A stretch of 64,000 nucleotides of DNA from Candidatus Moraniibacteriota bacterium (GCA_942490825.1 CALNYG010000003.1:68105-132104), one strand, 5' to 3'; shown: positions 44,316 to 61,495, counted from the stretch's first letter. Notes: generated by a model from the sequence alone, not told the origin. Numbers and translations: made by a program.

Positions 44316-47300
44316 CTATTTAATTATTTTAGCCAAAATATTATCAACAATATTATCCCATCTATATTCAGATAAATATGATTTATTATTTTTTCTACTT
44401 AAATCTTTTTTCAAAACTTCTGGAATTAAATTTATAAACTCATTATTATTTTTTGCCACATATAATTTATCATATTCGATATCTAAACCTTCTAAATTTG
44501 TTGAAAGAATTTTTTTATTTAAAGATGCATACAAATATAATTTTAACGGATTCATATTTTTTGTCATTTCATTGAACTTGTGTGGAATAATGCATAAATC
44601 AAAAAACTTTATATATTTAATTGCTTCAGCATAAGTACGAACTCCAATAACCTTAATGTTTTTAATGTTTTCAATCTTTTTAATGTCATTTTTTGCTCTA
44701 TGAAAAGATCCAATTAACACTATTTGTACATTTGGATATTTAATAGCAACTTCTTTTAATAAATCAAAGTTAAACCGTAAAGAATCCATATTTCCTGTAT
44801 ATCCTAAAATAGGTTTATTGATAAGTTCCATATCTTTAGGTATTTGCCAACTTGCGACCTCCTTTTTGTTAAAACTCTCACACCCATTTTCAAATTTATA
44901 TATAGGAATATTTAAATCTGTAACTATTTTTTTACAATAATCATACATATTATTATTATTGCAAAAAATAATATTACTTTTTTTTAAAATCTTTTCATAT
45001 TTAGCATAATATACTTCAGAATTATCTTTTTCATCAAATGAACCTGCATAATCAATAACATCTGATATAACTTTATATGGTTTTAATTTACCTACAATAT
45101 AGGATGAATCATCAATCAATGGACAAAACCAAAAGTAAGCCCTATCTATATTAATACCAGCATTATTAATTTCATTTTTAATATATTCAACATACTCATC
45201 AGCAGAATATTTATCATACAAATAGACCCTCCTCGAAATATCTTTTTCATCTGAATAGTTAGCAATTCTATTAGTAGTATTCTCAAAAACAAAACTATTT
45301 TGGGAATGTTTAAATTTACTTTCTTTTTTTAATTGATTTAATTGGCTCTCGCTTATTGGTTTATCAAAATGTAAAATCTTTCTAACTTTTTTATTCTTTA
45401 ATAAATACTTCACCATCATATCCGATCTACGACCATAAATATTAGAATCATTTTGTTTCCAAAAAAAAACCACATCTATTCCTTCGCTACTAGAATCACT
45501 TTTGCATTTATCTTCCATAAAATTTAAAAAACTGTCAACCTTGTCCATTTTAGAATCAACTAAGCCGCATTCACTCTTAAAAATGCTTTTTAAAGTTTTA
45601 TTAGCATATTCATAACTTAAATACTCAATAAAATATTTTCGATTCTTAATAGCACTAACCTTAAATTGATTATAATTATTAAATATATGATCAATTTTTT
45701 TAGGTAATTCTGATATATTTTCCAAAACTTCAATACAACCTAAAGATATAAACTTTTCTAGCGGTTTTATTTTTGTGCTTAAAATTGGAATTTCCATAGA
45801 AAGAGCATCTGAAATTTTTGATGGTATTTGAGATTTTGAAATTTCTGAGTTAATATCTTGTAATAAACACACTAAATCAGCAGCAGATAAAAATGCTGGT
45901 AATTTATCAAAGTCCTGATTTTCATAAACCTTAACAGATTTATTTCCTTTAAGAGCTTCTTTGACCTCTTCCTGAATAACGCTTCCTATGATACAAAATT
46001 TATAATTTATATTACCAATTTTCTTTAAAGCATCTGCCACCTCAATGATTCCTTTATGTTTATGCGGTGTGCCTACAAACATTATAACTTTATCATCTTT
46101 TTTGTAACCTAAAGCTTTTCTAATTTTATCTCTATTATAAAGTTTAGGATTAAAATATTGTTCATCTCTTATATGGGGAATTATTGTTCCACCATATTTT
46201 TCTTGTAAAGAATAGTTTGAAACTATAATTTTTTCAAATGTACAGGCTAGCGATTCTGTATATCTATTCCAGGTTTGACTATGTGCAACAGCAAATTCTT
46301 TAGATTCTTCATTAAATATTTCTTCCGCTTCAGAAATAGAATCTATTCTTGTTTTATTTCTTTCAAATGATAACTCATCGTCATCAACATCTAATATTAT
46401 TTTTGCATTAGTTTTTCTGCGTAACAAAAATCCTAACAATAAAGATGTCATTTTAGGTTTGCATACAATAATATAGTCAGCATCTTTATCTTTTATTGAT
46501 TTTATTATTCTTTGATAAAGTAATGGGAAAGTTGCTCCATCAATAATATACAAACAAAAATCTCTTAAATAAGTCAGGGGTTGCCATAATGATTTACCAT
46601 AAAAAGGAAAGAGGACGCCCATCATTTCTACGTTAAAATCTTTTTTCAAAACATCATAAAACAAGAAGGCTCTAGCAACAGGATTATGACTTACTGACCA
46701 TGCTACTACAACAACTTTTTTTCTATTTTTTAGATTTTCGTTATAAGCAGCATCATTTTTCTTTAAATAAAATCCATCAATATTAGGATTTTTTTCATAA
46801 TAAAAACGAATATTTCTTTTAAAAATATTCCTGATTTTTGAAGATATTTTTTTGAAAAATAAAAAAAATAAGTAAGGATTTTTTATTCCTTTTTTAATTT
46901 CATTTTTATAATATCTAATCATTTCTCTAATTTTCCAAAGTTTTAAATATTTCATTTTATTGAAAAATCTATTTTTTAATATTGAATTAGGAAAAACTGA
47001 CTTTTTTACTTTAATAATTGCTTTTATAATCAACCTAGGAATATCAAATATAGAATTTATTTTAATATTTTTATTTCCAAATAAAAATATTATAAAAAAA
47101 TTAACTGGAAAAGTAATTAATTTATAGGGCTTCTTAACTGATCGAAAAAATAAACTGCCCAACTTAAAAGATTTTGAATTTTTAATGGCTTTAATCCCCT
47201 TATCTCTATTTTTAATCTCCTTATCTTTATCTTTTAACCAATTGTCTCTATTTTTAATCTCCTTATCTTTATCTTTTAACCAATTGTCTCTATTTTTTAA

Positions 47301-48542
47301 ATTTCTATCTCTATTTTCAATCTGTCTGTCTTTACGATTAATAACTTCGTCCTTTACTTTGCGAACAGTTCTCAACCTCAAATATTTATAAAAATAATCT
47401 TTTAAATCTGGATAAAAACTAAATAAAATTTCTTCTAATTTTTTATATCTGTCATTTAATTTTTTGTTAAGATCTTCTTTTTTACCAATATCATGATAAA
47501 GAACTAATCGTGGATCATAATAAAATGACTCAATGTTGTAACCATAAAATTTTATCATACGATAAAATAAAATAATTCCTTCATGTCCATAAAGAGGATC
47601 TTCTTGTCCGCCAACTTTAATATAATCTCCTTTACGCATAACAGTATTTCCTTCTGTTATAGGTAAAATAGAAAATGATTCATTTCCTAAATCATACCAC
47701 ATTGGAGGCATTTCTGCACTCTGTTTTATTGTCAAAACCTTTCCTCGAACAGCAATTTTTGATTTATCTTTTTCAAAAATATCGATTGCAGCTTCAATAT
47801 AATATTCATTTACATAACCATCTGCATCGATAAATGCAAGTAGTGGTGCTTCTGCATGAAGTGCTCCTATATTACGTCCAGCAGACGGACCAACATTATT
47901 TTTCAAATCAATATGAGTAAGAGGATATTCTTTTAGTCTTTTTTTAGTTTGATCACTTAAACCATTATCAACTATAATCAATTCAAAATCATTAACTGTT
48001 TGATTCTGAAAATGATCTATATTTCTTATTAAATCATCGCATTCATTATAAGCAACAATAATTACAGATACTTTTGGATTAATTGCTTTTTGGTTATAGT
48101 GAAAAATATTTTTAATATCATTTTTATATTTTTCTTTTGAAATTAACTTTTCTTTTTTATGAAGTTTTATATGAGATACGTCTGAATAATCTCCTGTAAA
48201 TTTGTCAGTCTTTTGTTTTTTTAATAAAGATAACTTTGCTAAAACTTTTTCTACATTTAAATTTTTATATTTATCTAAAGCATAATTTTGAAACTTTTTT
48301 GAAAAATCAAGAGGAATTTCTTTTTTATATTTTATATTTATTGCTTGATTTTCATTTTCAAAATTATAAAAAGTTGAATAATTATCATAATAAATATTTT
48401 TTATATCATTTGAATAATCATTAATAAACTGTGTTGTTGCACCTCCTGTTCGATAAGTTGCAATTTGATCATTTACATAAACACTTTTATAGTCCTTTAA
48501 AATTAATCTGATTATTAACCCATAATCAGCTGGGAAGTCCAT
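44316..48542 (-). CDS. giant multidomain glycosyltransferase (GT2 + coiled-coil repeats + anchor module + two GT-B/GT4-like regions)
   Basis: 1408 aa. GT2 region VSVIIVAYNECDDL...LIIVDNGL...FIDADG. Repeats NRDNWLKDKDKEIK x2. Anchor module NSKSFKLGSLFFRSVKKPYKLITFPVNFF. GT4-like region MFVGTPHKHKGI... The N-terminus is colinear with the middle of 49121-51028. Confidence 0.8.
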   Translation of the reverse strand: MDFPADYGLIIRLILKDYKSVYVNDQIATYRTGGATTQFINDYSNDIKNIYYDNYSTFYNFENENQAINIKYKKEIPLDFSKKFQNYALDKYKNLNVEKVLAKLSLLKKQKTDKFTGDYSDVSHIKLHKKEKLISKEKYKNDIKNIFHYNQKAINPKVSVIIVAYNECDDLIRNIDHFQNQTVNDFELIIVDNGLSDQTKKRLKEYPLTHIDLKNNVGPSAGRNIGALHAEAPLLAFIDADGYVNEYYIEAAIDIFEKDKSKIAVRGKVLTIKQSAEMPPMWYDLGNESFSILPITEGNTVMRKGDYIKVGGQEDPLYGHEGIILFYRMIKFYGYNIESFYYDPRLVLYHDIGKKEDLNKKLNDRYKKLEEILFSFYPDLKDYFYKYLRLRTVRKVKDEVINRKDRQIENRDRNLKNRDNWLKDKDKEIKNRDNWLKDKDKEIKNRDKGIKAIKNSKSFKLGSLFFRSVKKPYKLITFPVNFFIIFLFGNKNIKINSIFDIPRLIIKAIIKVKKSVFPNSILKNRFFNKMKYLKLWKIREMIRYYKNEIKKGIKNPYLFFLFFKKISSKIRNIFKRNIRFYYEKNPNIDGFYLKKNDAAYNENLKNRKKVVVVAWSVSHNPVARAFLFYDVLKKDFNVEMMGVLFPFYGKSLWQPLTYLRDFCLYIIDGATFPLLYQRIIKSIKDKDADYIIVCKPKMTSLLLGFLLRRKTNAKIILDVDDDELSFERNKTRIDSISEAEEIFNEESKEFAVAHSQTWNRYTESLACTFEKIIVSNYSLQEKYGGTIIPHIRDEQYFNPKLYNRDKIRKALGYKKDDKVIMFVGTPHKHKGIIEVADALKKIGNINYKFCIIGSVIQEEVKEALKGNKSVKVYENQDFDKLPAFLSAADLVCLLQDINSEISKSQIPSKISDALSMEIPILSTKIKPLEKFISLGCIEVLENISELPKKIDHIFNNYNQFKVSAIKNRKYFIEYLSYEYANKTLKSIFKSECGLVDSKMDKVDSFLNFMEDKCKSDSSSEGIDVVFFWKQNDSNIYGRRSDMMVKYLLKNKKVRKILHFDKPISESQLNQLKKESKFKHSQNSFVFENTTNRIANYSDEKDISRRVYLYDKYSADEYVEYIKNEINNAGINIDRAYFWFCPLIDDSSYIVGKLKPYKVISDVIDYAGSFDEKDNSEVYYAKYEKILKKSNIIFCNNNNMYDYCKKIVTDLNIPIYKFENGCESFNKKEVASWQIPKDMELINKPILGYTGNMDSLRFNFDLLKEVAIKYPNVQIVLIGSFHRAKNDIKKIENIKNIKVIGVRTYAEAIKYIKFFDLCIIPHKFNEMTKNMNPLKLYLYASLNKKILSTNLEGLDIEYDKLYVAKNNNEFINLIPEVLKKDLSRKNNKSYLSEYRWDNIVDNILAKIIK
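47203..47286 (-). repeat. 2 x 42-bp perfect in-frame tandem repeat (NRDNWLKDKDKEIK), plus degenerate copies to ~47335
   Basis: The unit TCTCTATTTTTAATCTCCTTATCTTTATCTTTTAACCAATTG starts at 47203 and 47245. Confidence 0.9.
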
Positions 48543-48627
48543 ACTTTCATCAAAACATTGTATTTTCTCTAAAGAAAAATTGATGTTTTTGACGTTTAAA
48601 CATTGCTTAAATGAACAAATGGTATCT

Positions 48628-49116
48628 CTATAGAAAAATTTCTAAATTTCCTTTAAATATCCAAATAAATTCCCCTTCTTCGGTTTGCTTAATTGCATCT
48701 GCATAAGAAAAATCAGCATTATTTTTTTCTAATGCTTCAACTGACTTTTCAACTGCTTGTTTATTATGATAAAAATCATCACTATTTAACAATGCTAAAT
48801 ATTTCCCTTTTGCCTCTCTAATTCCTTTATTCATTGCGTCATAAATACCAGCATCCTTTTCAGAAATATATCTTATCCATCCCTTGTCTGCATATTCTTT
48901 GATTAGATCTAAAGTTCCATCATTTGATGCACCATCAACTATAATATGTTCAATATTTCCATAAGTTTGATCGTGAACGGATTTTAAGTTTTGTTCAAAA
49001 AATTCTTTCCTTCCTGATTTTATCAAATTAAAAACTACTGTTACTATTGTAACTAAAGGTTGCTTGCTATTATATTGTTCTTCGTGATTAGACATCAATT
49101 TATATTCAATATACAA
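48628..49116 (-). pseudogene. detached N-terminal GT2 fragment of the giant GT (paralog of the 49121-51028 N-terminus)
   Basis: About 430 bp is identical to 50583-51013. The link to ORF 44316-48542 (48543-48640) carries several indels and stops relative to the intact paralog, and it cuts through the GT-A fold. Confidence 0.7.
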
Positions 49117-49120
49117 ATTA

Positions 49121-51028
49121 TTATTTAATTAATATTATCAACAAATTTATTGGAAAAGTTATTAATTTATATGGCTTTTTAATTGATCGAAAAAATAAAT
49201 CTCCTAATTTGAATGACTTTGAGTTTTGTAATTCTAAAAGTAGGCTCTTTTTGTTTTTTGTCCCAGCATCCTTTTTAACTACTTTTACAATTTGGTTATT
49301 ATTAATCGTGTCATCTTTAATCTTATGACTAATTCTACAGCTTATATATTTATACATACATTTAGCAAACCCTGGATATGCATCATGTATGGACTTTAGC
49401 AATAAGCCATGCCTTTTTACTTTACTTTCATCAATATTATCAGATTTCTTGTTATCATGATACAAAACTAATCGAGGCTCATAATAAAAAGACTTTACAT
49501 CATAATTATAAAACTCAATCATGCGATAAAACAAAACTAATCCTTCATGTCCATAGAGAACATCCTCTTGTCCTCCAACTTTAATATAATCCTTTTTACG
49601 TATAACAGTAACACCTTCAAATGAAGGAATAACAGAAAATACTTCATTTCCACAATCATATCCAAAAGGAGGCATTTCTGCACTCTGTTTTATTGTCAAA
49701 ACCTTTCCTCGAACAGCAATTTTTGATTTATCTTTTTCAAAAATATCGATTGCAGCTTCAATATAATATTCATTTACATAACCATCCGCATCAATAAAAG
49801 CGAGTAGTTGCGTCTCTGCATAAAGTGCTCCTATATTACGTCCAGCAGATGGACCAACATTATTTTTCAAATTAATGTAAGTAAGAGGATATTCTTTTAG
49901 CCTTTCTTTTGTTTGATTATCTAAACCATTATCTACCACAATCAATTCAAAATCTTTAACTGTTTGACTTTGAAAACTTTTGATGTTTCTAATAAGATCA
50001 TTTCCCTCATTATAAGCAACTATAATTACAGATACTTTTGGATTAATTGCTTTTTGGTTATAGTGAAAAATATTTTTAATATCATTTTTATATTTTTCTT
50101 TTGAAATTAACTTTTCTTTTTTATGAAGTTTTATATGAAATATATTTGAATAATCTGCTGTGAATTTGTCAGTCTTTTGTTTTTTTAATAAAGATAATTT
50201 TGCTAAAACTTTTTCTACATTTAAATTTTTATACTTATCTTTAGTGTATTGTTTAAATTTTTCTGCAAAATCAAAAGGTAACTCCCTTTTATACTTAATA
50301 TCCATCGCATGCTGTTTATCTCTAAAATTATAAAAATATTTATAATTATCATAATAAATATTTTTAATATCTTCTGAATAATCATCTATAAATTGTGTGG
50401 TCTCTCCTCCTGTTCGATAAGTTGCTATCTCACTATCCACATACACACTTTTATAGTCCTTTAAAATTAATCTGATTATTAATTCATAATCAGCAGGAAG
50501 CCCATATTTTTCATTAAAACATTTATTTTCTCGTAAAATTGATGTTTTGGTAAACATTGTTAAATGAGCAAATGGCATCTCATATAGAAAAATTTCTAAA
50601 TTTCCTTTAAATATCCAAATAAATTCCCCTTCTTCGGTTTGCTTAATTGCATCTGCATAAGAAAAATCAGCATTATTTTTTTCTAATGCTTCAACTGACT
50701 TTTCAACTGCTTGTTTATTATGATAAAAATCATCACTATTTAACAATGCTAAATATTTCCCTTTTGCCTCTCTAATTCCTTTATTCATTGCGTCATAAAT
50801 ACCAGCATCCTTTTCAGAAATATATCTTATCCATCCCTTGTCTGCATATTCTTTGATTAGATCTAAAGTTCCATCATTTGATGCACCATCAACTATAATA
50901 TGTTCAATATTTCCATAAGTTTGATCGTGAACGGATTTTAAGTTTTGTTCAAAAAATTCTTTCCTTCCTGATTTTATCAAATTAAAAACTACTGTTACTA
51001 TTGTAACTAAAGGTTGCTTATTATTCAT
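49121..51028 (-). CDS. dual-GT2 glycosyltransferase with a C-terminal anchor module
   Basis: Module 1: PLVTIVTVVFN...HIIVDGASNDGT...LLNSDD. Module 2: VSVIIVAYNEGNDL...LIVVDNGL...FIDADG. C-terminus QNSKSFKLGDLFFRSIKKPYKLITFPINLL. Confidence 0.85.
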   Translation of the reverse strand: MNNKQPLVTIVTVVFNLIKSGRKEFFEQNLKSVHDQTYGNIEHIIVDGASNDGTLDLIKEYADKGWIRYISEKDAGIYDAMNKGIREAKGKYLALLNSDDFYHNKQAVEKSVEALEKNNADFSYADAIKQTEEGEFIWIFKGNLEIFLYEMPFAHLTMFTKTSILRENKCFNEKYGLPADYELIIRLILKDYKSVYVDSEIATYRTGGETTQFIDDYSEDIKNIYYDNYKYFYNFRDKQHAMDIKYKRELPFDFAEKFKQYTKDKYKNLNVEKVLAKLSLLKKQKTDKFTADYSNIFHIKLHKKEKLISKEKYKNDIKNIFHYNQKAINPKVSVIIVAYNEGNDLIRNIKSFQSQTVKDFELIVVDNGLDNQTKERLKEYPLTYINLKNNVGPSAGRNIGALYAETQLLAFIDADGYVNEYYIEAAIDIFEKDKSKIAVRGKVLTIKQSAEMPPFGYDCGNEVFSVIPSFEGVTVIRKKDYIKVGGQEDVLYGHEGLVLFYRMIEFYNYDVKSFYYEPRLVLYHDNKKSDNIDESKVKRHGLLLKSIHDAYPGFAKCMYKYISCRISHKIKDDTINNNQIVKVVKKDAGTKNKKSLLLELQNSKSFKLGDLFFRSIKKPYKLITFPINLLIILIK

Positions 51029-51158
51029 AACTCAGATAAATTAATTTTTAAAATATTAAATGAAAACCTAAAACACTTTAAAATTCTTTATTAATAGATT
51101 ACTTCCAGAGTCTTTTAATAACATATAGCTATCCTCATTGAAAGCTTAAATGCCTAGT

Positions 51159-51920: not shown

Positions 51921-52017
51921 AATATTATAAGTTATTATAAATTAATTATTATTAAATTACATAAAAAATAGAATTGTCTTTTTGCTAAATTTTAAAAGTT
52001 ATTTTAAAATTTAAAAT

Positions 52018-53079: not shown

Positions 53080-53118
53080 TTATAAAAACTTAAAAAATTT
53101 AAACTATACTAAAAAAAT

Positions 53119-53943
53119 TCACTCACCTTTCTTAATTTTTGCTAACTCAGTAATAATTTCCTCATGCCTCTGTCCGTTAGTAATCACAAATCCATTTAAG
53201 TTTTTTGGTACTTTCTTATTATACACTATTTTTTCTCCATGCATATCAGTAATTTTACCACCTGCCTCTTCTATCATAATTTGCCCAACACAAGTATCCC
53301 ATTCCCCTGTTTTATCACTTGAATTTATATAGATCTCAGCCTCACCACTAACAATTTTCCCTATCTTAATTGGCACTGATCCCATTGCTATTTTTTCTTT
53401 GAAATTAAATTTTTCAAAAATAATCAGTTCTTCTTCGCGTAAATGATTTCTACTAACAAGAATTTTCCATTCGCTAAAATCATCATTGTTATTAACTTGT
53501 ACACGAGCTACTTTTCCATCTTTTTCAATAAAACATCCTTTGTCTTTTTCAGCTATATAAAATATTTTTTTTAACGGCTCGTAAGCAACTCCCATAATCG
53601 GTTTGCCTTCTTTTGCAAGTCCTATCATCACTGAAAACTCACCTGTTCTCTTAATAAAATCACTAGTGCCGTCAAGTGGATCAACTATAAAAACATATTC
53701 TGAATCTAATCTTTTTAGATCATCTGCCGCTTCTTCTGATAATATTGGAATGTTAAATTTTTTAAGATTAGCATTTATAATTTTTTCAGATGCTAAATCT
53801 GCCTCAGTTAATGGAGTACTTTCATTTCCATCCTTATATGAAACATCATACTTCTGATTATAAAACTCTAAAATTTTCTCTCCTGCAGTCTTAGCTATAT
53901 TTTTTATTTCTTCTACGTTTATGTTATTTATGTAATTCATCAA
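53119..53943 (-). CDS. cysQ: 3'(2'),5'-bisphosphate nucleotidase (CysQ-like, inositol monophosphatase family)
   Basis: SEEA...IVDPLDGTSDF...WDTCVGQ motifs. Overlaps cysC by 20 nt. Ends in TGA. The CysQ-versus-SuhB assignment rests on context. Confidence 0.7.
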   Translation of the reverse strand: MMNYINNINVEEIKNIAKTAGEKILEFYNQKYDVSYKDGNESTPLTEADLASEKIINANLKKFNIPILSEEAADDLKRLDSEYVFIVDPLDGTSDFIKRTGEFSVMIGLAKEGKPIMGVAYEPLKKIFYIAEKDKGCFIEKDGKVARVQVNNNDDFSEWKILVSRNHLREEELIIFEKFNFKEKIAMGSVPIKIGKIVSGEAEIYINSSDKTGEWDTCVGQIMIEEAGGKITDMHGEKIVYNKKVPKNLNGFVITNGQRHEEIITELAKIKKGE

Positions 53944-54466
53944 GCTTTATTTCTAAATAATTAATCACTTTTTTAACACTATCTTCAACTGTTTCTTTTT
54001 CTGTATTAATAGTAAGTTCTGGATTATCAGGAGCTTCAAATGGATCTTGGACGCCTGTAAAATCTTTTATTTCTCCTTTATTAGCCTTAGCATACATACC
54101 TTTAACATCCCTTCTGGTACACTCTTTTACATCACATTCAACATAAATTTCTATAAAATTTTCACATAATTCTCTGGTAAAATTTCTCATTGATCTGTAA
54201 GGAGATACAAAAGCAGAAACTGTATTTACGCCATTATTAGATAGCATCTGTGCGATATATGACATTCTTTCAATATTTTTATTCCGATCTTCTTTACTAA
54301 AACCTAAATCTTTACTAATAGTCTCACGCACGACATCTCCATCTAATCGTTGCATTGATAAATTTTTATCTTGAAAATACTTTTCAATTTCTTTTGATAA
54401 AGTTGTTTTACCGCTACAAGGCAATCCTGTAAACCAAATTACGAGACCTTTTTTATTTTTAATCAT
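53924..54466 (-). CDS. cysC: adenylyl-sulfate (APS) kinase
   Basis: P-loop FTGLPCSGKTTL. LDGDVVR and FVSPY motifs. 180 aa. Confidence 0.9.
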   Translation of the reverse strand: MIKNKKGLVIWFTGLPCSGKTTLSKEIEKYFQDKNLSMQRLDGDVVRETISKDLGFSKEDRNKNIERMSYIAQMLSNNGVNTVSAFVSPYRSMRNFTRELCENFIEIYVECDVKECTRRDVKGMYAKANKGEIKDFTGVQDPFEAPDNPELTINTEKETVEDSVKKVINYLEIKLDELHK

Positions 54467-54481
54467 AAAATTTTGGTATTG

Positions 54482-55182
54482 CTACTCAAATATAGAAATA
54501 GCAATTTCTCTGTGCATGAATAGCAAGATTGTATTTTCAACCATTTCAATACTTTTAGAATAACAATGAGTTTTCCTATGAAATCTTGCTATATAATGTC
54601 TTAATTGATTATTCATTCCTTCAACTGTAAAAGTCTCTGCTTTTGTTTGAATGTGCTTATCTTTTGGTAAAAATTTTTTATAAACATCCCAATGATCTGA
54701 ACAGTATTTATCGCAATCAATTTTTTTGATTTTGTCCCATAATTTTCTTCCAGTTTTTTCACCTCTTGTCCCTATCACGAAATCAATTATTATTTTACTA
54801 GATCTATCAACTGCAAGCCAAATCCAGGCTTTTTTCTTTTTTTTAACACAAAATGCCACATTTCATCTAATTCCATTTTTTCTATTTTCCAATATTTTAC
54901 TTCTTTTTTACTTTTTAAAATATTCCTTAATTTTTTAGTTGCTTTTTTTACCCATCTTAATATACTAACGTTACTAACTTTCAGTATTCTTCCTATTGAT
55001 CTAAATCCTAGTCCCTCTAAATACATTTCAATTGCTTTTTTCTTAATTTCTTTAGGTTTTCCTCTTTTTGTAAATCTAGAAAAGTTATAGCTACATTCTT
55101 TACATAGATATCTTTGTTTTTTATTTACTTTACCATTTTTAACATAATTCTTATTATTGCAATGAGGGCATTTAATTTTCAT
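54482..55182 (-). CDS. IS1 transposase (InsA zinc-finger/HTH frame plus InsB' DDE frame, joined by a -1 frameshift)
   Basis: InsA: CPHCNN...CKEC. The LDEMWHFV motif straddles the frame overlap. InsB frame: WIWLAVDR, SDHWDVY, TVEGMNNQLRHYIARFHRKTHCYSKS. Confidence 0.8.
54830..54844 (-). promoter_or_regulatory. probable programmed -1 ribosomal frameshift site of IS1
   Basis: The minus strand reads TTAAAAAAAAGAAAAAAGCC (A8-G-A6) inside the insA/insB overlap. The insB frame is -1 relative to insA. Confidence 0.6.
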
Positions 55183-55256
55183 TTTTTTGTTTTTAGGTAT
55201 TTAATTACCTATTCATTTTACATTATCTATAGTTTGGTAGCAATACCAAAATTTTA

Positions 55257-56987
55257 TTATTTATTTATCAAAATCCTTAAAAAATTAATTGGAAATGTTA
55301 ATAGTTTATATGGTTTTTTAATTGAACGAAAGACTAATTCTCCTAATCTGAACGATTTTGAATTTTGAAGATCAAAAATAATAAAGTCTTGATTCTCTAT
55401 TATACTAACTTTTTTTTGTAATGTCTTTTTTAATTCCACAATTTCTTGTCGTTGAAAGTTCTTAGCACAAAGAGCTTTTTGAACATTTGATGGTTGTAAT
55501 GTCTTTTTTAATTCCACAATTTCTTTTCGTTGAGAGTTCTTAGTACAAGGATCTTTTTGAACATTTAATGGTTGTAATGTCTTTTTTAATTCCACAATTT
55601 CTTTTCGTTGAGGGTTCTTAACACAAGGAGATTTTTGAACATTCGAGGATTGTGACAAAAAGTTGAGTAAATTTGGAAAACAATTTTCATCAATAAAAGG
55701 AACTTTATTCTTAAGCAATGAAATATCTAATTTTTCATTACTTTCAACCAACTCTTTAAGTAAATCAGCGTATTTCTTACCTTGCCTTTTTCTTGAAAAA
55801 TTTTGTTTTGCATATTCTACACAGTCTTTACCACTAATATTACTATTCAAAACTTCATAGACAGCGTCTGCAAAATCATTAACATTTCCTAATTCCACAC
55901 ATCTGCCTCTCAAATCATCTCCTACAATTTCCTTAATAGCACCAGTGTCAAAACCGACAATAGGTGTACCACAAGCAACTGATTCTGCAGCAGTATTTGA
56001 AAAAGTTTCTGCTAAAGAAGGTATAACTGTTATATTAGATTGTGAATACAATTTCGCTAACTCTTTTTTATCATTAATAACACCAACATTTATAATTGGA
56101 TATGGACAACCAATTTTGATCATTCTACTCGATCCAGAACCAGCAACCAGCAACTGTAATTTAAAATCTGGATGTTTCTTCTTAATAATATTTAGAGAAT
56201 CCAAAAATTCATTAAAGCCTTTAACATTACTTCCATGAGAAGGAAGGTGAAATACCGTTGGAATATCACATCTTAAGTTAAGATTTTTTTTAAAACTACC
56301 ATCTTTACTAGGTTTAAATATATCCAAGTCAATAGAATTGCCAATAACTTTAATTGAGCATTTAGATAAAATTGGAGATTTTTCAACTATTTTTTTAGTA
56401 TGTTCACTTAATAAAAAGATTGTAATATTGTCTGTATTCCAGTATTCTTTTTTTATATCAAAAACTTTTTTTGGAAAATTACCTGCTTTATCATTTAGTA
56501 ACTGTGGACAACTTTCACAATTTTTTAACCAATTTTTACAACCATGAAAATAATGACAGCCACCCGCTAATAAATTCATATCTCGAATAATCATAACAAC
56601 GGGAATTCCCAAGTTTGTTAAATAACCAATATCTTCAGCTGTAAGAAATCGAGCAACCCATTGTAAAACTATAACATCTACATCTTTTACAAGCTTATCT
56701 AATGTTTTTCTGTTCAATTTAGGCTCATTTAAACTAAAGATAGTATTATCCTCTTTTTTATTTTTTTCTAACTGTATTTCATCGTAATTTAATCCTATAT
56801 CAGGATTAAGAAAAATATAATTTTTTCCCTCATACATTCTATTGCTAGCTGTCTCTCTTGTTACAAGCTTTGAGTTAATACCATTTATCAAAAGTGAATC
56901 ATGCATACCTGCTGTAGCACACCCTGCCCCACCATACACATAACTTGTAAATATCAAAACATTCATTTTTTTATTATTTTTTTTCAT
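55257..56987 (-). CDS. GT4-like glycosyltransferase with tandem-repeat coiled coil and C-terminal anchor module
   Basis: GT-B core (...IPSLAETFSNTAAESVACGTPIVGFDTGAIKEIV). 3 x 26-aa repeats. C-terminus QNSKSFRLGELVFRSIKKPYKLLTFPINFLRILINK. Confidence 0.8.
   Translation of the reverse strand: MKKNNKKMNVLIFTSYVYGGAGCATAGMHDSLLINGINSKLVTRETASNRMYEGKNYIFLNPDIGLNYDEIQLEKNKKEDNTIFSLNEPKLNRKTLDKLVKDVDVIVLQWVARFLTAEDIGYLTNLGIPVVMIIRDMNLLAGGCHYFHGCKNWLKNCESCPQLLNDKAGNFPKKVFDIKKEYWNTDNITIFLLSEHTKKIVEKSPILSKCSIKVIGNSIDLDIFKPSKDGSFKKNLNLRCDIPTVFHLPSHGSNVKGFNEFLDSLNIIKKKHPDFKLQLLVAGSGSSRMIKIGCPYPIINVGVINDKKELAKLYSQSNITVIPSLAETFSNTAAESVACGTPIVGFDTGAIKEIVGDDLRGRCVELGNVNDFADAVYEVLNSNISGKDCVEYAKQNFSRKRQGKKYADLLKELVESNEKLDISLLKNKVPFIDENCFPNLLNFLSQSSNVQKSPCVKNPQRKEIVELKKTLQPLNVQKDPCTKNSQRKEIVELKKTLQPSNVQKALCAKNFQRQEIVELKKTLQKKVSIIENQDFIIFDLQNSKSFRLGELVFRSIKKPYKLLTFPINFLRILINK
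55416..55650 (-). repeat. 3 x 78-bp in-frame tandem repeat (NVQK..C.KN.QRKEIVELKKTLQP)
   Basis: The AATGTCTTTTTTAATTCCACAATTTCT landmark recurs at 55420, 55498 and 55576. Confidence 0.9.
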
Positions 56988-56989
56988 AA

Positions 56990-58285
56990 TTATTTACCCA
57001 ATAAAATCCTTAAAAAATTTATTGGAAATGTTAATAGTTTATATGGTTTTTTAGTTGAACGAAAGACTAGCGTTCCTATTCTGAATGATTTTGAATTTAT
57101 TATAGCATCTTTCTCTTTTTCTTTCTGAGTTATCATAGCATCTTTCTCTTTTTCTTTCTGAGTTATTATAGCATATTTCTCTTTTTCTTTCTGAGTTATT
57201 ATAGCATTAATCTCTTTTCCTTTCTGAGTTATTATAGCATTAATCTCTTTTCCTTTCTGAGTTATTATAGCATATTTTTGCTGAAGTTCTTGATTTTTTT
57301 GTGCTATTTTTTGATCTTTTTGCTGAAGTTCTTGATTTTTTTGTGCTATTTTTTGATCTTTTTGCTGAAGTTCTTGATTTTTTTGTGCTATTTTTTGATC
57401 TTTTTGCTGAAGTTCTTTATTTTTTTGAGTTAGCTTACATTTAAACTCATTCAATTGATTATCTTTTAATTTAACCCTACCTTCTTGTTTTTCTATTAAA
57501 ATTTTATAACTTGATATTTTTTTTAAATTAAATTTATTTTCCTTTTGAAAATTAACTTTTTCCAAATTAATAAATTCCTCCCAGAAATCAAAATCGTATC
57601 TTTCCCAGGCATGACAACCAAAAGGCAACTTTTTATTTCTCATTTCATACAATCTCTTTGGTTGACATTCAAAAGAAAAATTTATTGCATTATTAACTGG
57701 AGCCACTTTAAAATTCTCTTTAATTTTTTTTGCTTCAAAAGCAAAAAATCCATCTTCATTTGAACCTTTTGCAATAAAATTATCAATAATGTCCCTATTA
57801 TCCTCATCACAATCTAAGACCTCTATGAAACTACTTATTTTTCTCAAAGAAAATCCTCCATTTCCTCCAACCTCCATTAGCTCAGACTTTTCATCACTAG
57901 AACTAAAATTTTTAAACCATGGAGCCCCAATATAATCAAAGTCCTTTTCACACCAATACTCTAATTTATCTCTAAAAACATAAGCATCTAATTGATAAAT
58001 AAGCATAAACTCGTAACTTTTGAATCTATCATAAAAATTTTTACTCATCATCAACCTATTATAGCTCTTTACGCTTTCAAAAAAAGAATCATCAAATTTT
58101 TCTATTGTATAGTTTACATTATGTTTCTTCAAAATAACTTTATATCTTTCTAAAGTTAAACTATTTGGACAAATTAAAGAAAATGAATATTTATTTAAAA
58201 TTTTACAACATTGAACAAAAGAAGATTCTTCAAATCCACTCATTTTCTCATTATATATTGGTATTGCTATTATTACTTTTTTCAT
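56990..58285 (-). CDS. DUF5672-like putative glycosyltransferase with tandem-repeat coiled coil and C-terminal anchor module
   Basis: YQLDAYVF...FDYIGAPWF...GGNGGFSLRK. Repeats QKNQELQQKDQKIA x3 and AIITQKxKExx x5. C-terminus NSKSFRIGTLVFRSTKKPYKLLTFPINFLRILLGK. Confidence 0.7.
   Translation of the reverse strand: MKKVIIAIPIYNEKMSGFEESSFVQCCKILNKYSFSLICPNSLTLERYKVILKKHNVNYTIEKFDDSFFESVKSYNRLMMSKNFYDRFKSYEFMLIYQLDAYVFRDKLEYWCEKDFDYIGAPWFKNFSSSDEKSELMEVGGNGGFSLRKISSFIEVLDCDEDNRDIIDNFIAKGSNEDGFFAFEAKKIKENFKVAPVNNAINFSFECQPKRLYEMRNKKLPFGCHAWERYDFDFWEEFINLEKVNFQKENKFNLKKISSYKILIEKQEGRVKLKDNQLNEFKCKLTQKNKELQQKDQKIAQKNQELQQKDQKIAQKNQELQQKDQKIAQKNQELQQKYAIITQKGKEINAIITQKGKEINAIITQKEKEKYAIITQKEKEKDAMITQKEKEKDAIINSKSFRIGTLVFRSTKKPYKLLTFPINFLRILLGK
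57099..57402 (-). repeat. two adjacent in-frame tandem arrays: 5 x 33 bp (57099-57263) and 3 x 42 bp (57277-57402)
   Basis: 33-bp units start at 57099, 57132, 57165, 57198 and 57231. 42-bp units start at 57277, 57319 and 57361, with a partial fourth. Confidence 0.9.
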
Positions 58286-58309
58286 ATTTTTATTAATAAA
58301 AAAAACATA

Positions 58310-59593
58310 TTAAAATAATTTATTTTTTATTTTTTTTAATCTCTTATTTAAAAATAAATACAGCAAACTCGGATGTCTTGATCCTTGTTTTATACTATCT
58401 TTATAGTGTATATAGATATTTCTAATTATCCAAAATTTTGATTGCTTTATTAAGTTAATATCCTGTTCTTTTTGTTGAATAATAGACTCTTGCTTTTTAA
58501 TTTTTTTATTTTTATTTTTATTTAAAGTTAATTGTTTTTCTATCTCATTATCTTTTTCACTAATAATCAATTCTAACCCCTCACGTGTTTTAAATAAAAA
58601 GTCATAACTACCTTCTAAAAAATTAATCTCATTAAATAATTCTAATTTTTTAATTTTAGAGTTAAATTTTTTATTTTTTGCTTCTTTATATACATTCTCC
58701 AATTTACTTACAACATTGTCAACACCATTTTCTTTTACAACAAGCTCCCTCAATCTCTTTCCTGAGTCAGGGTTATATTTTAGAATTTCTTTCTTAAAAT
58801 CTTCAACTGAATATTCTTTACCAGAAAACCTACCCGATAAACTATTCTTTCTAAAATTAAAGAAATTATCTTCATTGATCATTCCATCTCCTCCATGCAT
58901 ATCAAAAACAATGACATTCCTCTCACATGCCATAGACTCTAGAACGCCTCTTCCTATCGTTACAACTATGTCTGCCTTATTTATCCACTTCTCAACATTT
59001 TTAACTGAATTATTAGGAAGTCCAACATGTAAAACATTTATATCTAATTCTATACAAGCTTTCTCCACAACCTCTTTCACTTTTGGAATATAGTGATTGC
59101 TTAAAACTAAAAGATTTTTTGGCTTTTTATCTACCTTATTAAAAGCATAAAACTTTTCAGCATCAACAAAATTTCTGACTAATTTAATCCTATCATCACT
59201 TATATTATGATTTTGAATAAAATTATTTCTAACTTCCTCGCTAACACTCAAGTAATTCTGTATTCCTAAATCAATTGAAGGCGGCTGCTCTAATTTAGGA
59301 ATAACTCCATGAGACATAAAAATCATAGGCACATCAGAAAAAACCGATCTTGCAATTACAGCAGTTGTATTATGTTGTGCATGTATAACATCAAAATCTA
59401 TTTTTTTCAATCCTATAATATTATTAGTAACTGTTATGCCTTTTTTTCTAATTTCATCAGCTATTACACCTAAAACAGGAGAATAAATGAATACTTCATG
59501 TCCTCTCTTTTGTAATTCTAAAGCTAAACCTTTTGTAAAAAGCTCTGAGCCTGTGTACTGACATAAATAAAAGTTGGTTATTAATATTTTCAT
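58310..59593 (-). CDS. GT4-like glycosyltransferase with a C-terminal coiled coil and basic tail
   Basis: Preferred start MKILITNFY at 59593; the ORF-track start is at 59659. The tail KFWIIRNIYIHYKDSIKQGSRHPSLLYLFLNKRLKKIKN is homologous to an internal segment of 44316-48542. Confidence 0.7.
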   Translation of the reverse strand: MKILITNFYLCQYTGSELFTKGLALELQKRGHEVFIYSPVLGVIADEIRKKGITVTNNIIGLKKIDFDVIHAQHNTTAVIARSVFSDVPMIFMSHGVIPKLEQPPSIDLGIQNYLSVSEEVRNNFIQNHNISDDRIKLVRNFVDAEKFYAFNKVDKKPKNLLVLSNHYIPKVKEVVEKACIELDINVLHVGLPNNSVKNVEKWINKADIVVTIGRGVLESMACERNVIVFDMHGGDGMINEDNFFNFRKNSLSGRFSGKEYSVEDFKKEILKYNPDSGKRLRELVVKENGVDNVVSKLENVYKEAKNKKFNSKIKKLELFNEINFLEGSYDFLFKTREGLELIISEKDNEIEKQLTLNKNKNKKIKKQESIIQQKEQDINLIKQSKFWIIRNIYIHYKDSIKQGSRHPSLLYLFLNKRLKKIKNKLF

Positions 59594-60394: not shown

Positions 60395-60558
60395 AGTTCA
60401 TTCATTTCATTATCTACCATTTAAATAATAGCTATTTTTCACTCAAAACAATCTTAAATAAATATTTTCCATCACAAACCTAATTGGGAATTTATAGAGA
60501 AATTAAAATAAAAAAACTACTTTATTTATTGTCAAGTAATAAACTTAAGAATTTATTA

Positions 60559-61491: not shown

Positions 61492-61495
61492 AATT

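What the first reader, a model, noticed from the sequence alone, without database searches (positions are those of the whole stretch)
44316..59593. Four enzymes of the cluster share one C-terminal anchor module preceded by different, recently amplified coiled-coil repeats
Seen in sequence: the motif NSKSF[KR][LI]G.L.FRS.KKPYKL[IL]TFP[IV]N occurs four times.
- At the C-terminus of 49121-51028 (nt ~49124-49231).
- At the C-terminus of 55257-56987 (~55260-55367).
- At the C-terminus of 56990-58285 (~56993-57097).
- Internally in 44316-48542 (~47075-47180).

The catalytic domains attached to it differ (GT2-GT2, GT4, DUF5672-like). The module DNA of two adjacent genes is nearly identical (55277-55365 versus 57017-57105).

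Each module is immediately preceded by a different perfect or near-perfect in-frame tandem array predicted to be coiled coil: 2 x 42 bp, 3 x 78 bp, and 5 x 33 bp plus 3 x 42 bp.

A second shared tail, K[LF]W.IR...Y.YK..IK.G...P.L..LF..K, links 58310-59593 to an internal segment of 44316-48542 (~46850-46960).

Inference: this is a common membrane- or partner-docking module on variable-length stalks. It could co-localise the enzymes, or set their distance from the membrane as the coiled-coil ruler of WbdD does in ABC-dependent O-antigen synthesis. Repeat copy number would then be an easily mutable parameter.
Basis: partly seen in the sequence, partly recalled or inferred. Interest (0 to 1): 0.75.

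Follow-up and report, generated by a model that had tools for sequence, protein, structure and literature searches.

The report
Shared tail module on glycan-building enzymes
Several otherwise unrelated sugar-polymer-building enzymes in this gene cluster end in the same conserved, positively charged 35-residue helical tail. The tail sits on helical stalks made of freshly duplicated repeats, and it most likely pins the enzymes to the inner face of the cell membrane at adjustable heights.

Summary
The strict motif occurs exactly four times in the six-frame translation, on GT2-GT2, GT4 and DUF5672 proteins and inside a 1408-aa multi-GT protein. Three of the four copies are preceded by near-perfect in-frame arrays. 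Those four arrays are the only short-period arrays in the 64 kb.

The module is not a local quirk. A profile finds about 44 protein clusters among 1.84 billion proteins. They are mostly Patescibacteria (Moranbacteria, Parcubacteria) glycan enzymes, often several per locus and next to Wzm/Wzt. Pfam, NCBIfam and the PDB have nothing for it.

AlphaFold with a 41-sequence alignment gives stalk helix, break, amphipathic helix, Pro kink, hydrophobic helix (pLDDT 92). Mean net charge is +6 and there is no transmembrane segment.

The "second tail" is also real and conserved (SKFWK[ILM]R…P.KF.KKY), with a third copy in the window. Its start resembles SRSWRMT, which follows the coiled coil of E. coli WbdD.

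Two 99.9%-identical metagenome contigs differ only by one 42-bp stalk unit.

Best reading: a WbdD-like peripheral membrane-targeting tail on evolvable stalks. This is a new variant of a known design. Function is untested.

Corrections: one module has no repeat array, the 78-bp repeat carries prolines, and the "nearly identical" DNA is 90% identical and was given 7 nt out of register.

The parts
47082..47186 (-). Type-1 tail module, internal copy (aa 453-487 of the 1408-aa ORF): IKNSKSFKLGSLFFRSVKKPYKLITFPVNFFIIFL
   Evidence: Strict motif at 47100-47180. Family HMM 66.7 bits.
49124..49234 (-). Type-1 tail module, C-terminus of GT2-GT2 protein (635 aa). No repeat array upstream.
   Evidence: 71.5 bits. 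TRF finds no array here.
55260..55370 (-). Type-1 tail module, C-terminus of GT4 protein (576 aa)
   Evidence: 74.9 bits.
56993..57103 (-). Type-1 tail module, C-terminus of DUF5672 protein (431 aa)
   Evidence: 68.4 bits. AlphaFold with a 41-sequence alignment: mean pLDDT 92.2, helices at residues 32-45, 47-50 and 53-62 of the last 64 aa.
47203..47297 (-). Stalk repeat, 2.3 x 42 bp (14 aa: NRDNWLKDKDKEIK), 100% identical
   Evidence: TRF. Translation.
55416..55643 (-). Repeat, 2.9 x 78 bp (26 aa, Pro/Cys-containing helix-linker unit), 92% matches
   Evidence: TRF. Translation.
57097..57277 (-). Stalk repeat, 5.5 x 33 bp (11 aa: AIITQKEKEKD), 93% matches
   Evidence: TRF. Lies inside the AlphaFold helix 275-398.
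57275..57427 (-). Stalk repeat, 3.6 x 42 bp (14 aa: QKNQELQQKDQKIA), 99% matches
   Evidence: TRF. Lies inside the AlphaFold helix 275-398, pLDDT 82-93.
58313..58444 (-). Type-2 tail, C-terminus of GT4 protein 58310-59593: QSKFWIIRNIYIHYKDSIKQGSRHPSLLYLFLNKRLKKIKNKLF
46827..46970 (-). Type-2 tail-like segment, internal in the 1408-aa ORF (aa 525-572), about 40 aa after the type-1 module
   Evidence: phmmer E 3.7e-5 against the GT4 tail. Alignment.
41687..41803 (-). Type-2 tail, C-terminus of GT2 protein 41684-42622: KSSIFWKLIEQYFVWKEKIRFVIFSPKKFLKKYYIIKRN. Outside the finding's range.
   Evidence: Matches the C-termini of L013, L011 and L008 proteins.
44316..48542 (-). 1408-aa multi-module ORF: GT2 remnant, GT2, 14-aa-repeat stalk, type-1 module, type-2 segment, then two GT4-like modules
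   Evidence: Pfam and NCBIfam. Paralogy to 49121-51028.
48628..49116 (-). Orphan N-terminal GT2 fragment of the duplicated gene, cut off by indels at about 48540-48640
   Evidence: 420 nt are 100% identical to 50595-51014.
49121..51028 (-). GT2-GT2 gene carrying a type-1 module
55257..56987 (-). GT4 gene carrying a type-1 module
56990..58285 (-). DUF5672 gene with a 124-residue predicted helical stalk and a type-1 module
58310..59593 (-). GT4-family gene carrying a type-2 tail
62588..63328 (-). Wzt/TagH-type ABC ATPase (246 aa, no C-terminal carbohydrate-binding domain)
63357..64000 (-). Wzm/TagG-type ABC-2 permease (runs off the window end)

Best explanation
**What it is.** The 34-38-residue tail has the consensus [NQE]-S-K-S-F-[RKQ]-[LI]-G-x-L-F-F-R-S-[IV]-K-x-P-[YW]-K-[LWM]-[IL]-T-F-P-[IVY]-N-[FL]-x-x-I-L-x-x-K-COOH. 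I read it as a portable peripheral membrane-targeting module. The cluster's second tail (…SKFWK[ILM]R..Y.K.K…P.KF.KKY) is read the same way. Both are used by the soluble enzymes of a Wzm/Wzt (ABC-transporter-dependent) glycan pathway.

**How it is proposed to work.**
1. The enzymes have no transmembrane segment.
2. The tail forms a basic amphipathic helix, a proline kink and a short hydrophobic helix. These lie in the cytoplasmic leaflet next to the lipid-linked acceptor.
3. The helical stalk in front of the tail probably oligomerises. That would give avidity and hold the catalytic domain at a set distance from the membrane. For the DUF5672 protein the stalk is about 124 residues, roughly 18 nm.
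4. This is the design known from WbdD.
5. The stalks grow and shrink by slippage of 42-bp (two-heptad) units, which keeps the helical register. Stalk length is therefore an evolvable parameter.

**Shown here:** conservation, placement, helical and amphipathic prediction, charge, absence of transmembrane segments, Wzm/Wzt association and repeat polymorphism.

**Inferred:** membrane binding, oligomerisation and any effect on the glycan.
For: - The module is conserved far outside the locus. 45 representatives reach E<=1e-3 among 1.84e9 proteins; one is a spurious repeat protein and three are the window's own proteins.
- When terminal, the protein always ends 33-35 aa after the S of SKSF.
- It is attached to GT2, GT4, Methyltransf_24, Methyltransf_11, sulfotransferases, DUF5672, a TagF-like domain, TOD1/MUCI70 and PRTase domains.
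- Other loci carry several modules each: L003 x3, L005 x3, L004 x2, L013 x2.
- Wzm/Wzt is present in 6 loci including the window. It is the only non-GT family shared by five or more loci.
- AlphaFold with 41 sequences gives pLDDT 92.2 and the layout stalk helix, NS break, helix 32-45, helix 47-50, helix 53-62.
- Helix 1 has mean hydrophobic moment 0.55 at mean hydrophobicity about 0, reaching 0.84 on the consensus. Module net charge averages +6, range +3 to +9.
- No enzyme of the cluster has a 19-residue window with Kyte-Doolittle hydropathy of 1.6 or more. The Wzm control has 51 such windows.
- The DUF5672 stalk is predicted as one helix, residues 275-398, with pLDDT 82-93.
- WbdD of E. coli HS has SRSWRMT at aa 592-598, right after its coiled coil. 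The tail-2 HMM aligns there at 4.5 bits, a score reached by about 2 of 2000 shuffles.
- WbdD's C-terminal region is the published membrane-associating and polymerase-recruiting part (PMC3447403, PMC11231755).
- About ten relatives have the module between an N-terminal enzyme plus coiled coil and C-terminal GT modules. This is the membrane-proximal position in WbbB and O7-ORF6-type proteins (PMC11231755).
- Polymorphism: P0012 and P0049, on contigs L015 and L013, are 99.9% identical over 7 kb and differ by one 42-bp unit.
- 7 of the 8 family members with stalk arrays have a 14-aa period.
Against: - No experiment supports it, and no multimer or membrane modelling was possible.
- Polar and structural residues are very strongly conserved: S 98%, G 95%, L 100%, S 93%, P 100%, K 95%, P 95%, N 95%. 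That is more than a generic lipid-binding amphipathic helix needs and hints at a specific partner or fold.
- The hydrophobic moment is only moderately above shuffled controls (mean z 1.5).
- The module-1 HMM does not detect WbdD. The tail-2 match to WbdD is weak and short.
- One module-bearing enzyme has no stalk, and one has a proline-broken repeat.
- The window's Wzt lacks the CBM of terminator and ruler systems.
Confidence: 0.55

Rival explanations
1. The tail is a specific protein-docking peptide. It would bind the Wzm/Wzt transporter or another common receptor, or the tails of different enzymes would bundle with each other. The result would be a multi-enzyme glycan factory, with membrane contact secondary.
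For: - Near-invariant S, G, R-S, P, K, P and N positions across very different host proteins.
- pTM 0.63 suggests a defined helix-kink-helix shape.
- Wzm/Wzt is the only recurrent non-GT neighbour.
- WbdD's C-terminal region also recruits WbdA (PMC3482155, PMC11231755).
- Two distinct tail types co-exist in one cluster and lie in tandem in the 1408-aa protein.
Against: - No partner was identified.
- L003 (12 kb) and L004 (15 kb) carry 2-3 modules without Wzm/Wzt in range.
- The +6 charge and aromatic/hydrophobic make-up are typical of lipid binding.
Confidence: 0.25
2. The tail recognises the lipid carrier (undecaprenyl phosphate or pyrophosphate-linked glycan) rather than bulk membrane. It would hold each enzyme on its substrate.
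For: - Conserved basic residues (R20, K23, K27) sit next to conserved aromatic and proline positions.
- All host enzymes act on a lipid-linked glycan. This second point is inference from the pathway type.
Against: - There is no sequence match to any known polyprenol-binding element.
- Nothing in the tools could test it.
- Modifying enzymes that act at the far end of the chain (methyl- and sulfotransferases) carry the tail too.
Confidence: 0.07
3. The shared tails and repeats are by-products of local duplication or gene conversion, or of assembly errors, in an AT-rich locus. On this view the tail is a low-complexity basic tail without a specific role.
For: - The window has 29% GC.
- Genes 49121-51028 and 47086-49074 are tandem paralogues with a 420-nt 100% identical tract.
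- Module DNA of adjacent genes is 90% identical.
- The window's proteins are singletons in the 15-billion-protein collection, so their copy numbers cannot be cross-checked.
- No reads were available.
Against: - The module is conserved at 45-79% identity in about 44 clusters from other genomes, including a 44% GC Thiotrichaceae MAG. It sits on unrelated catalytic domains and always at the same distance from the C-terminus.
- Arrays are in frame and keep heptad multiples in independent lineages.
- Arrays are short (95-330 bp).
Confidence: 0.05
4. The tail is a foldon-like beta-hairpin oligomerisation nucleus that sets the register of the coiled coil, not a membrane element.
For: Single-sequence AlphaFold placed two short strands (403-408, 416-421) and a helix in the module at pLDDT 53-67. 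It also sits at the C-terminal end of a long helix, as the fibritin foldon does; that comparison is from my own knowledge.
Against: The alignment-based model is all-helical at pLDDT 92. The strong positive charge and hydrophobic C-terminal helix are unlike a soluble foldon. There was no fold match in the PDB.
Confidence: 0.04

Closest known systems
WbdD (E. coli O9a / K. pneumoniae O3), chain-terminating kinase-methyltransferase with a coiled-coil molecular ruler and a C-terminal membrane-associating, WbdA-recruiting region
   Same: - Wzm/Wzt-dependent pathway.
- Soluble catalytic domain, then a long helical stalk, then a short basic/aromatic C-terminal region.
- The stalk of the DUF5672 protein (about 124 residues, roughly 18 nm) is of the same order as WbdD's roughly 20 nm (PMC5082667).
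- The junction motif S-[KR]-x-[FW]-[KR]-[LIM] directly after the stalk is present in WbdD (SRSWRMT, aa 592-598) and in both tail types.
- Relatives with Methyltransf_24 + stalk + module sit next to a Wzt carrying a Wzt_C CBM, as in WbdD systems.
   Different: - The module-1 HMM does not detect WbdD. The tail-2 similarity is only 4.5 bits over 20 residues.
- Here the tail is on several enzymes of one cluster, mostly glycosyltransferases, not only on a terminator.
- The tail is much shorter (about 35 aa against about 110 aa after the coil in WbdD) and much more strongly conserved.
- The stalks are built from near-identical, recently amplified repeats.
- The window's Wzt has no CBM.
WbbB (K. pneumoniae O12) and ORF6 of serotype O7: terminator, coiled coil, then C-terminal polymerase GT modules in one polypeptide (PMC11231755)
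   Same: The 1408-aa ORF and about ten relatives (P0021, 23, 24, 26, 28, 36, 38, 39, 41, 42) have an N-terminal enzyme, then a coiled coil, then further catalytic modules. Several have an N-terminal methyltransferase and C-terminal GT2, like O7 ORF6.
   Different: A discrete conserved tail module lies between the coil and the C-terminal modules. On my own knowledge no such element is described for WbbB or ORF6; the one paper read here mentions none, and I did not search the literature for this.
Generic C-terminal amphipathic membrane-targeting helices of peripheral bacterial proteins (MinD/FtsA-type MTS, KpsC/KpsS and TagB-type anchors of glycan enzymes). The comparison rests on my own knowledge.
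   Same: A short, basic, amphipathic terminal helix on an otherwise soluble protein. Avidity would come from oligomerisation.
   Different: Those helices are poorly conserved in sequence and are single helices. This module has near-invariant G, P, P and N positions and a helix-kink-helix layout, and it is shared between non-homologous enzymes.

Membership tests
WbdD-type terminator/ruler architecture of ABC-transporter-dependent glycan assembly | Encoded in a cluster with a Wzm/Wzt (ABC-2) exporter | tested here: met
   Wzt at 62588-63328 and Wzm at 63357 onwards. Wzm/Wzt are also present in L002, L010, L011, L012 and L013.
WbdD-type terminator/ruler architecture of ABC-transporter-dependent glycan assembly | Extended coiled-coil stalk between catalytic domain and C-terminal region | tested here: inconclusive
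   - DUF5672 protein: continuous helix 275-398, pLDDT 82-93.
- 1408-aa ORF: about 58 aa of K/D/N/R-rich 14-aa repeats, not modelled.
- GT2-GT2 protein: no stalk repeats.
- GT4 protein: 26-aa units containing prolines.
- Coiled-coil oligomerisation itself cannot be shown with a monomer model.
WbdD-type terminator/ruler architecture of ABC-transporter-dependent glycan assembly | C-terminal amphipathic helix that associates with the cytoplasmic membrane | tested here: inconclusive
   The helices are predicted at pLDDT 92. Hydrophobic moment is 0.55-0.84 and net charge about +6. There is no TM-grade segment. Actual membrane binding is not testable here.
WbdD-type terminator/ruler architecture of ABC-transporter-dependent glycan assembly | Distal catalytic domain is a chain-terminating enzyme (kinase, methyltransferase or Kdo transferase) | not testable with these tools
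   The window carriers are GT2, GT4 and DUF5672 domains of unknown specificity. Relatives carry Methyltransf_24 and sulfotransferase domains, which would fit.
WbdD-type terminator/ruler architecture of ABC-transporter-dependent glycan assembly | Wzt carries a C-terminal carbohydrate-binding module that reads the terminated chain | tested here: not met
   The window Wzt is 246 aa with only an ABC_tran domain. The feature is met in the relative L015, whose Wzt is 435 aa with PF14524 Wzt_C.
WbdD-type terminator/ruler architecture of ABC-transporter-dependent glycan assembly | Sequence homology of the tail to the WbdD C-terminal region | tested here: not met
   The module-1 HMM finds no hit in WbdD even at E 1000. 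The tail-2 HMM gives 4.5 bits at aa 585-604, a score reached by about 2 of 2000 shuffles. That is a motif-level resemblance only.
Any curated protein family or solved structure (Pfam-A, NCBIfam, PDB) | A model or structure that covers the 35-aa tail | tested here: not met
   No Pfam or NCBIfam hit overlaps the tails. PDB hmmsearch with the 42-sequence profile gives 0 hits at E<=10. The best Foldseek PDB match has E=7.
C-terminal transmembrane tail anchor | A hydrophobic stretch of about 19 or more residues able to span the bilayer | tested here: not met
   The maximum 19-residue Kyte-Doolittle mean in the module-bearing proteins is 0.77-1.43, below the 1.6 threshold. In the 1408-aa and GT2-GT2 proteins that maximum (1.41 and 1.29) lies in the tail itself. 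The Wzm control reaches 2.71. The hydrophobic part is about 10-13 residues and is interrupted by R/K and N.

The most novel reading that the evidence does not exclude
The two tail types are address labels that assemble a multi-enzyme glycan factory around the Wzm/Wzt exporter in Patescibacteria. Each glycosyl-, methyl- or sulfo-transferase would be held at its own height above the membrane by a stalk whose length changes in 2-nm steps through slippage of 42-bp repeats. Chain length and the position of modifications on the surface glycan would then be rapidly and heritably tunable. That would amount to a contingency-locus mechanism acting on enzyme geometry rather than on expression.
Probability: 0.2. 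Interest if true: 0.8.

Novelty: new variant of a known kind. Interest (0 to 1): 0.55.

Why it matters
How soluble glycosyltransferases of ABC-transporter-dependent pathways are gathered at the membrane, and how chain length is set, is understood mainly from WbdD, WbbB and the K. pneumoniae O4/O7 proteins in Enterobacteria.

This finding adds three things:
- A compact, strongly conserved and unannotated tail module. It could be used as a sequence marker to find such enzymes and clusters in candidate-phyla-radiation genomes, whose cell surfaces are poorly known.
- Evidence that the stalk-plus-tail design is applied to many enzymes of one pathway, not only to a terminator.
- A natural example of a stalk changing by exactly one two-heptad unit between near-identical populations. 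This makes the 'ruler length is evolvable' idea directly testable.

The 35-aa peptide is small enough for simple biophysical tests, and it might serve as a membrane-targeting tag.

Tried and rejected
- **Short-profile protein searches.** The search for homologous proteins with the short module profiles returned only two short proteins. Its word index does not suit 40-aa queries. The index-free representative search was what worked.
- **Locus search with the 42-sequence alignment.** A 14-sequence subset worked.
- **Locating the window's own proteins.** The look-up of encoding contigs found no record for the two window proteins tried. All five window proteins looked up with the listing of cluster members are singletons. 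Strain-level copy-number comparison for this exact locus was therefore impossible.
- **Single-sequence AlphaFold.** The DUF5672 protein gave a low-confidence beta-hairpin for the module. I rejected this in favour of the 41-sequence model, which is all-helical at pLDDT 92.
- **Structure and fold matches.** Foldseek against the PDB and the PDB sequence profile search found nothing.
- **Homology to WbdD.** The module-1 HMM against WbdD gave no hit. I therefore do not claim homology, only a shared junction motif and layout.
- **Module 1 versus tail 2.** The cross-HMM scores are 3.6 bits or less, so the two are not shown to be one family.
- **Transmembrane anchor.** Considered and rejected on hydropathy.
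- **DUF5672 literature.** The search gave nothing useful.

Full report
**1. What is in the sequence**

All genes of the finding lie on the minus strand, inside a glycan-assembly cluster. Its contents are:
- GT2 genes at 41684-42622 and 42714-43568.
- A methyltransferase at 43574-44302.
- A 1408-aa multi-GT ORF at 44316-48542, and an orphan GT2 fragment at 48628-49116.
- A GT2-GT2 gene at 49121-51028.
- Sulfotransferases at 51159-51920 and 59672-60394.
- ATP sulfurylase, a CysQ-like phosphatase and APS kinase at 52018-54466.
- An IS1-family element at about 54471-55190.
- A GT4 gene at 55257-56987, a DUF5672 gene at 56990-58285, and a GT4-family gene at 58310-59593.
- GDP-fucose synthase and GDP-mannose dehydratase at 60559-62551.
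- A Wzt/TagH-type ATPase and a Wzm permease from 62588 to the window end.

The positions are nt 47100-47180, 49145-49225, 55284-55364 and 57017-57097.

Tandem Repeats Finder confirms the four arrays: 2.3 x 42 bp at 100%, 2.9 x 78 bp at 92%, 5.5 x 33 bp at 93% and 3.6 x 42 bp at 99%. Across all 64 kb the only other array scoring at least 100 is a 297-bp duplication in an unrelated protease-like gene. Every short-period array of the window therefore lies within about 110 codons upstream of a module.

**2. Corrections to the observation**

- The GT2-GT2 protein has the module but no array.
- In the right register, the module DNA of the two adjacent genes is 73/81 (90%) identical. Other pairs are 57-68/81.
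- The 26-aa unit of the GT4 protein (NVQKSPCVKNPQRKEIVELKKTLQPL) carries prolines. At best it is a helix-linker repeat, not a continuous coiled coil.
- The internal module has a clear origin. Region 47086-49074 is a tandem paralogue of gene 49121-51028, 89% identical overall.
  - The two share a 420-nt tract that is 100% identical.
  - Five small indels follow at about 48540-48640. They cut off the first GT2 domain and leave the orphan ORF 48628-49116.
  - The catalytic part is 72-100% identical per 60-nt block and the module about 83% identical.
  - The stalk between them is unalignable.
  - The paralogue lacks the stop codon after the module and reads on into a region with two GT4-like modules.
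  - A 90-aa fragment from another metagenome (P0034) shows the same continuation after the module. The fused layout is therefore not unique to this assembly.

**3. The module exists outside this locus**

- A 5-sequence profile was searched without a word index against 1.84 billion representative proteins. It gave 45 hits at E<=1e-3 and 29 at E<=1e-10.
- One hit is a spurious eukaryote-like repeat protein. Three hits are the window's own proteins.
- In the hits where the module is terminal, the protein ends 33-35 residues after the S of SKSF.
- Column conservation in a 42-sequence alignment is S 98%, G 95%, L 100%, R 88%, S 93%, P 100%, K 95%, P 95% and N 95%.
- Pfam scans of 36 full-length members show GT2 (16), GT4/GT1-type (4 or more), Methyltransf_24 (3), Methyltransf_11 (3), sulfotransferases, DUF5672, a TagF-like glycerophosphotransferase, TOD1/MUCI70 and a phosphoribosyltransferase. 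A GT8 precedes a separately called module ORF in L001.
- About ten members have the module at residues 300-370, followed by further catalytic domains. One has it near the N-terminus.
- Genome and metagenome scans gave 12 loci (two hold the same contig). The named genomes are four Candidatus Moranbacteria MAGs and one Thiotrichaceae MAG, and one protein is annotated Parcubacteria group.
- A family HMM run on six-frame ORFs finds several modules per locus: L003 x3, L005 x3, L004 x2, L013 x2 and the window x4.
- Wzm/Wzt is present in six loci including the window. It is the only non-GT family shared by five or more loci.
- L002 (Moranbacteria) is syntenic with the window: Wzm, Wzt, Gmd, Fcl, then a module protein. 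The window, at 29% GC, is therefore probably from a Patescibacteria genome. This is inference.
- No Pfam, NCBIfam or PDB entry covers the tail.
- Orthologues of the GT2-GT2 protein at about 50% identity end in a diverged variant, NSRLYKVLMLYYNSKGNFVDLIKFPIRAMKILLK. It aligns end to end with the module HMM but only weakly. The family is therefore wider than the stringent count suggests.

**4. The second tail**

The C-terminus of the GT4-family protein matches aa 525-572 of the 1408-aa ORF. It also matches the C-terminus of the GT2 protein 41684-42622, which lies outside the finding's range.

The same tail ends proteins in L004 (two), L008, L011 and L013, and starts one protein in L013. Its consensus is [MIV]-K-[SN]-S-K-F-W-K-[ILM]-R-x-x-Y-[LV]-K-x-K … F-x-[FI]-[FL]-x-P-x-K-F-x-K-K-Y.

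Parcubacteria DUF5672-GT2 fusions end in its second half, F.IFSPRKF.KKY.

Six enzymes of the window cluster therefore carry one of two tail types. The 1408-aa ORF has both, about 40 residues apart.

**5. Structure and physical character**

- Single-sequence AlphaFold of the DUF5672 protein gives one continuous helix, residues 275-398, at pLDDT 82-93. It spans both arrays. As an alpha-helix this is roughly 18 nm, and about 110 of the 124 residues come from the amplified repeats.
- The last 64 residues were modelled with a 41-sequence alignment. The result has mean pLDDT 92.2 and pTM 0.63. Its layout is:
  - stalk helix to I29;
  - a break at N30-S31;
  - helix 32-45 (KSFRIGTLVFRSTK);
  - a short helix 47-50 after the invariant proline;
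  - helix 53-62 (FPINFLRILL).
- The low-confidence beta-hairpin seen without an alignment is superseded by this model.
- Helix 1 has mean hydrophobic moment 0.55 at mean hydrophobicity near zero. The consensus reaches 0.84, and the mean z against shuffles is 1.5.
- The C-terminal part has mean hydrophobicity of about 0.4. The module's net charge averages +6.
- None of the cluster's enzymes has a transmembrane-grade segment. In two of them the tail is the most hydrophobic stretch.

**6. Link to known biology**

In E. coli O9a, WbdD consists of catalytic domains, a trimeric coiled coil that holds them about 20 nm from the membrane, and a C-terminal region. That region contains a membrane-associating amphipathic helix and recruits the polymerase WbdA. 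Changing the coil length changes the modal chain length (PMC3447403, PMC3482155, PMC5082667, PMC11231755).

A coiled coil is described as a marker of the terminator proteins of these pathways. In WbbB and O7-ORF6 the coil is followed by polymerase GT modules (PMC11231755).

I retrieved WbdD from E. coli HS (L014 7966-10092, 708 aa). Directly after its coiled coil it reads …EIEKIHRSRSWRMTKGYRYLG…. The SRSWRMT heptad (aa 592-598) has the pattern S-[KR]-x-[FW]-[KR]-[LIM] that opens both tail types here (SKSFRLG and SKFWKMR).

The tail-2 HMM aligns to WbdD 585-604 at 4.5 bits, a score reached by about 2 of 2000 shuffled WbdD sequences. The module-1 HMM finds nothing. The resemblance is therefore one of position, layout and a short junction motif, not demonstrated homology.

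Relatives fit the terminator paradigm well. In L015/L013 a Methyltransf_24-stalk-module protein lies two genes downstream of a Wzt that carries the Wzt_C carbohydrate-binding domain. The window's own Wzt lacks that domain.

**7. Evolvable stalks**

Among 57 distinct module-bearing proteins, eight have near-perfect tandem repeats in the 150 residues before the module. In seven of them the period is 14 aa, although the sequences are unrelated: QKNQELQQKDQKIA, NRDNWLKDKDKEIK, SEIKDLSESIAKRD, IEEKNSVIEQKTKE, ETKDKELIQKTQQL, LIQQKDTQLNQKEE and QQLKQKD x2. Fourteen residues are two heptads, so gain or loss keeps the helical register and changes the length by about 2 nm.

Direct evidence comes from proteins P0012 (ENA) and P0049 (NCBI/JGI, Parcubacteria group). 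They belong to one 90% cluster and differ by 14 aa. The DNA around P0012 (L015) and the JGI contig L013, which encodes the longer form, is 99.9% identical over 7 kb. The only indel of more than 1 nt is one 42-bp unit, giving 2.7 copies against fewer than two. Assembly error cannot be fully excluded.

The window's own proteins are singletons in the collection, so their copy numbers could not be cross-checked.

**8. Verdict**

The best explanation (confidence 0.55) is a portable peripheral membrane-targeting tail on oligomerising, length-variable stalks. This is the WbdD design applied to many enzymes of a Wzm/Wzt pathway, which here probably makes a sulfated, fucose-containing glycan.

The main rival (0.25) is specific docking to the transporter or between tails. 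The unusually strict conservation of polar and structural residues favours that rival.

Function is inferred throughout. I rate it a new variant of a known kind, with interest 0.55.

Noticed in passing
window 54471-55190; 28491-28790; 2773-3593: An IS1-family element (InsA-like ORF 54790-55182 plus DDE_Tnp_IS1 ORF 54482-54859) sits inside the glycan cluster, between the PAPS genes and the GT4 gene. 300 nt are 100% identical to 28491-28790. ORFs at 2773-3593 have matching sizes and may be a third copy.
   Followed up: partly
window 47086-49074 versus 49121-51028: These are tandem paralogues with a 420-nt 100% identical tract (49060-48641 = 51014-50595). Five small indels follow at about 48540-48640 and split off ORF 48628-49116 as an orphan GT2 fragment. 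The pattern suggests recent gene conversion plus decay, or local sequence errors.
   Followed up: partly
window 37238-41185: A 1315-aa secreted subtilisin-like ORF has two large internal duplications: 297 bp x 2 at 38590-39188 (90%), and 39198-39497 versus 39702-40001 (99%).
   Followed up: no
window 51159-54466 and 59672-62551: The cluster encodes ATP sulfurylase, APS kinase, a CysQ-like phosphatase, two sulfotransferases, Gmd and Fcl. Together these suggest a sulfated, fucose-type surface glycan in a probable Patescibacteria genome. Sulfation genes or sulfotransferase-module fusions recur in related loci (L003, L010, P0018, P0022, P0032, P0037, P0038).
   Followed up: partly
window 43574-44302: This stand-alone Zn-ribbon plus Methyltransf_11 protein resembles the domain that is fused directly after the type-1 module in P0030, P0024 and P0036. 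Here it is a separate, tail-less gene immediately downstream of the 1408-aa ORF.
   Followed up: no
L013 8298-9332 and L015 3001-3972: Two metagenome contigs are 99.9% identical over 7 kb and differ by one 42-bp stalk repeat in a Methyltransf_24-stalk-module protein. That protein lies two genes downstream of a Wzt carrying a Wzt_C CBM, so it looks like a WbdD(O8)-like terminator in Parcubacteria.
   Followed up: yes
P0036, P0039 (relatives): These proteins combine a phosphoribosyltransferase region with a stalk and the module. They recall the two-domain ribofuranosyltransferases of K. pneumoniae O4/O7 (PMC11231755).
   Followed up: no
P0101, P0105, P0110 (relatives): In Parcubacteria, DUF5672 domains about 60-70% similar (by eye; not computed) to the window's are fused N-terminally to a GT2 domain that ends in the type-2 tail. 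DUF5672 is thus repeatedly the membrane-distal domain, which makes it a candidate chain-capping enzyme.
   Followed up: no
L016 8001-9328: The 71-aa 'stand-alone module' protein P0046 overlaps a 383-aa downstream ORF in a pilon-polished contig. It is probably one frameshifted gene with an N-terminal module, in a cluster with GT2s, a sulfotransferase, UDP-glucose dehydrogenase and LicD.
   Followed up: partly
window 17864-18158 versus 20436-20730: A 295-nt direct repeat at 74% identity between two intergenic or gene-end regions.
   Followed up: no
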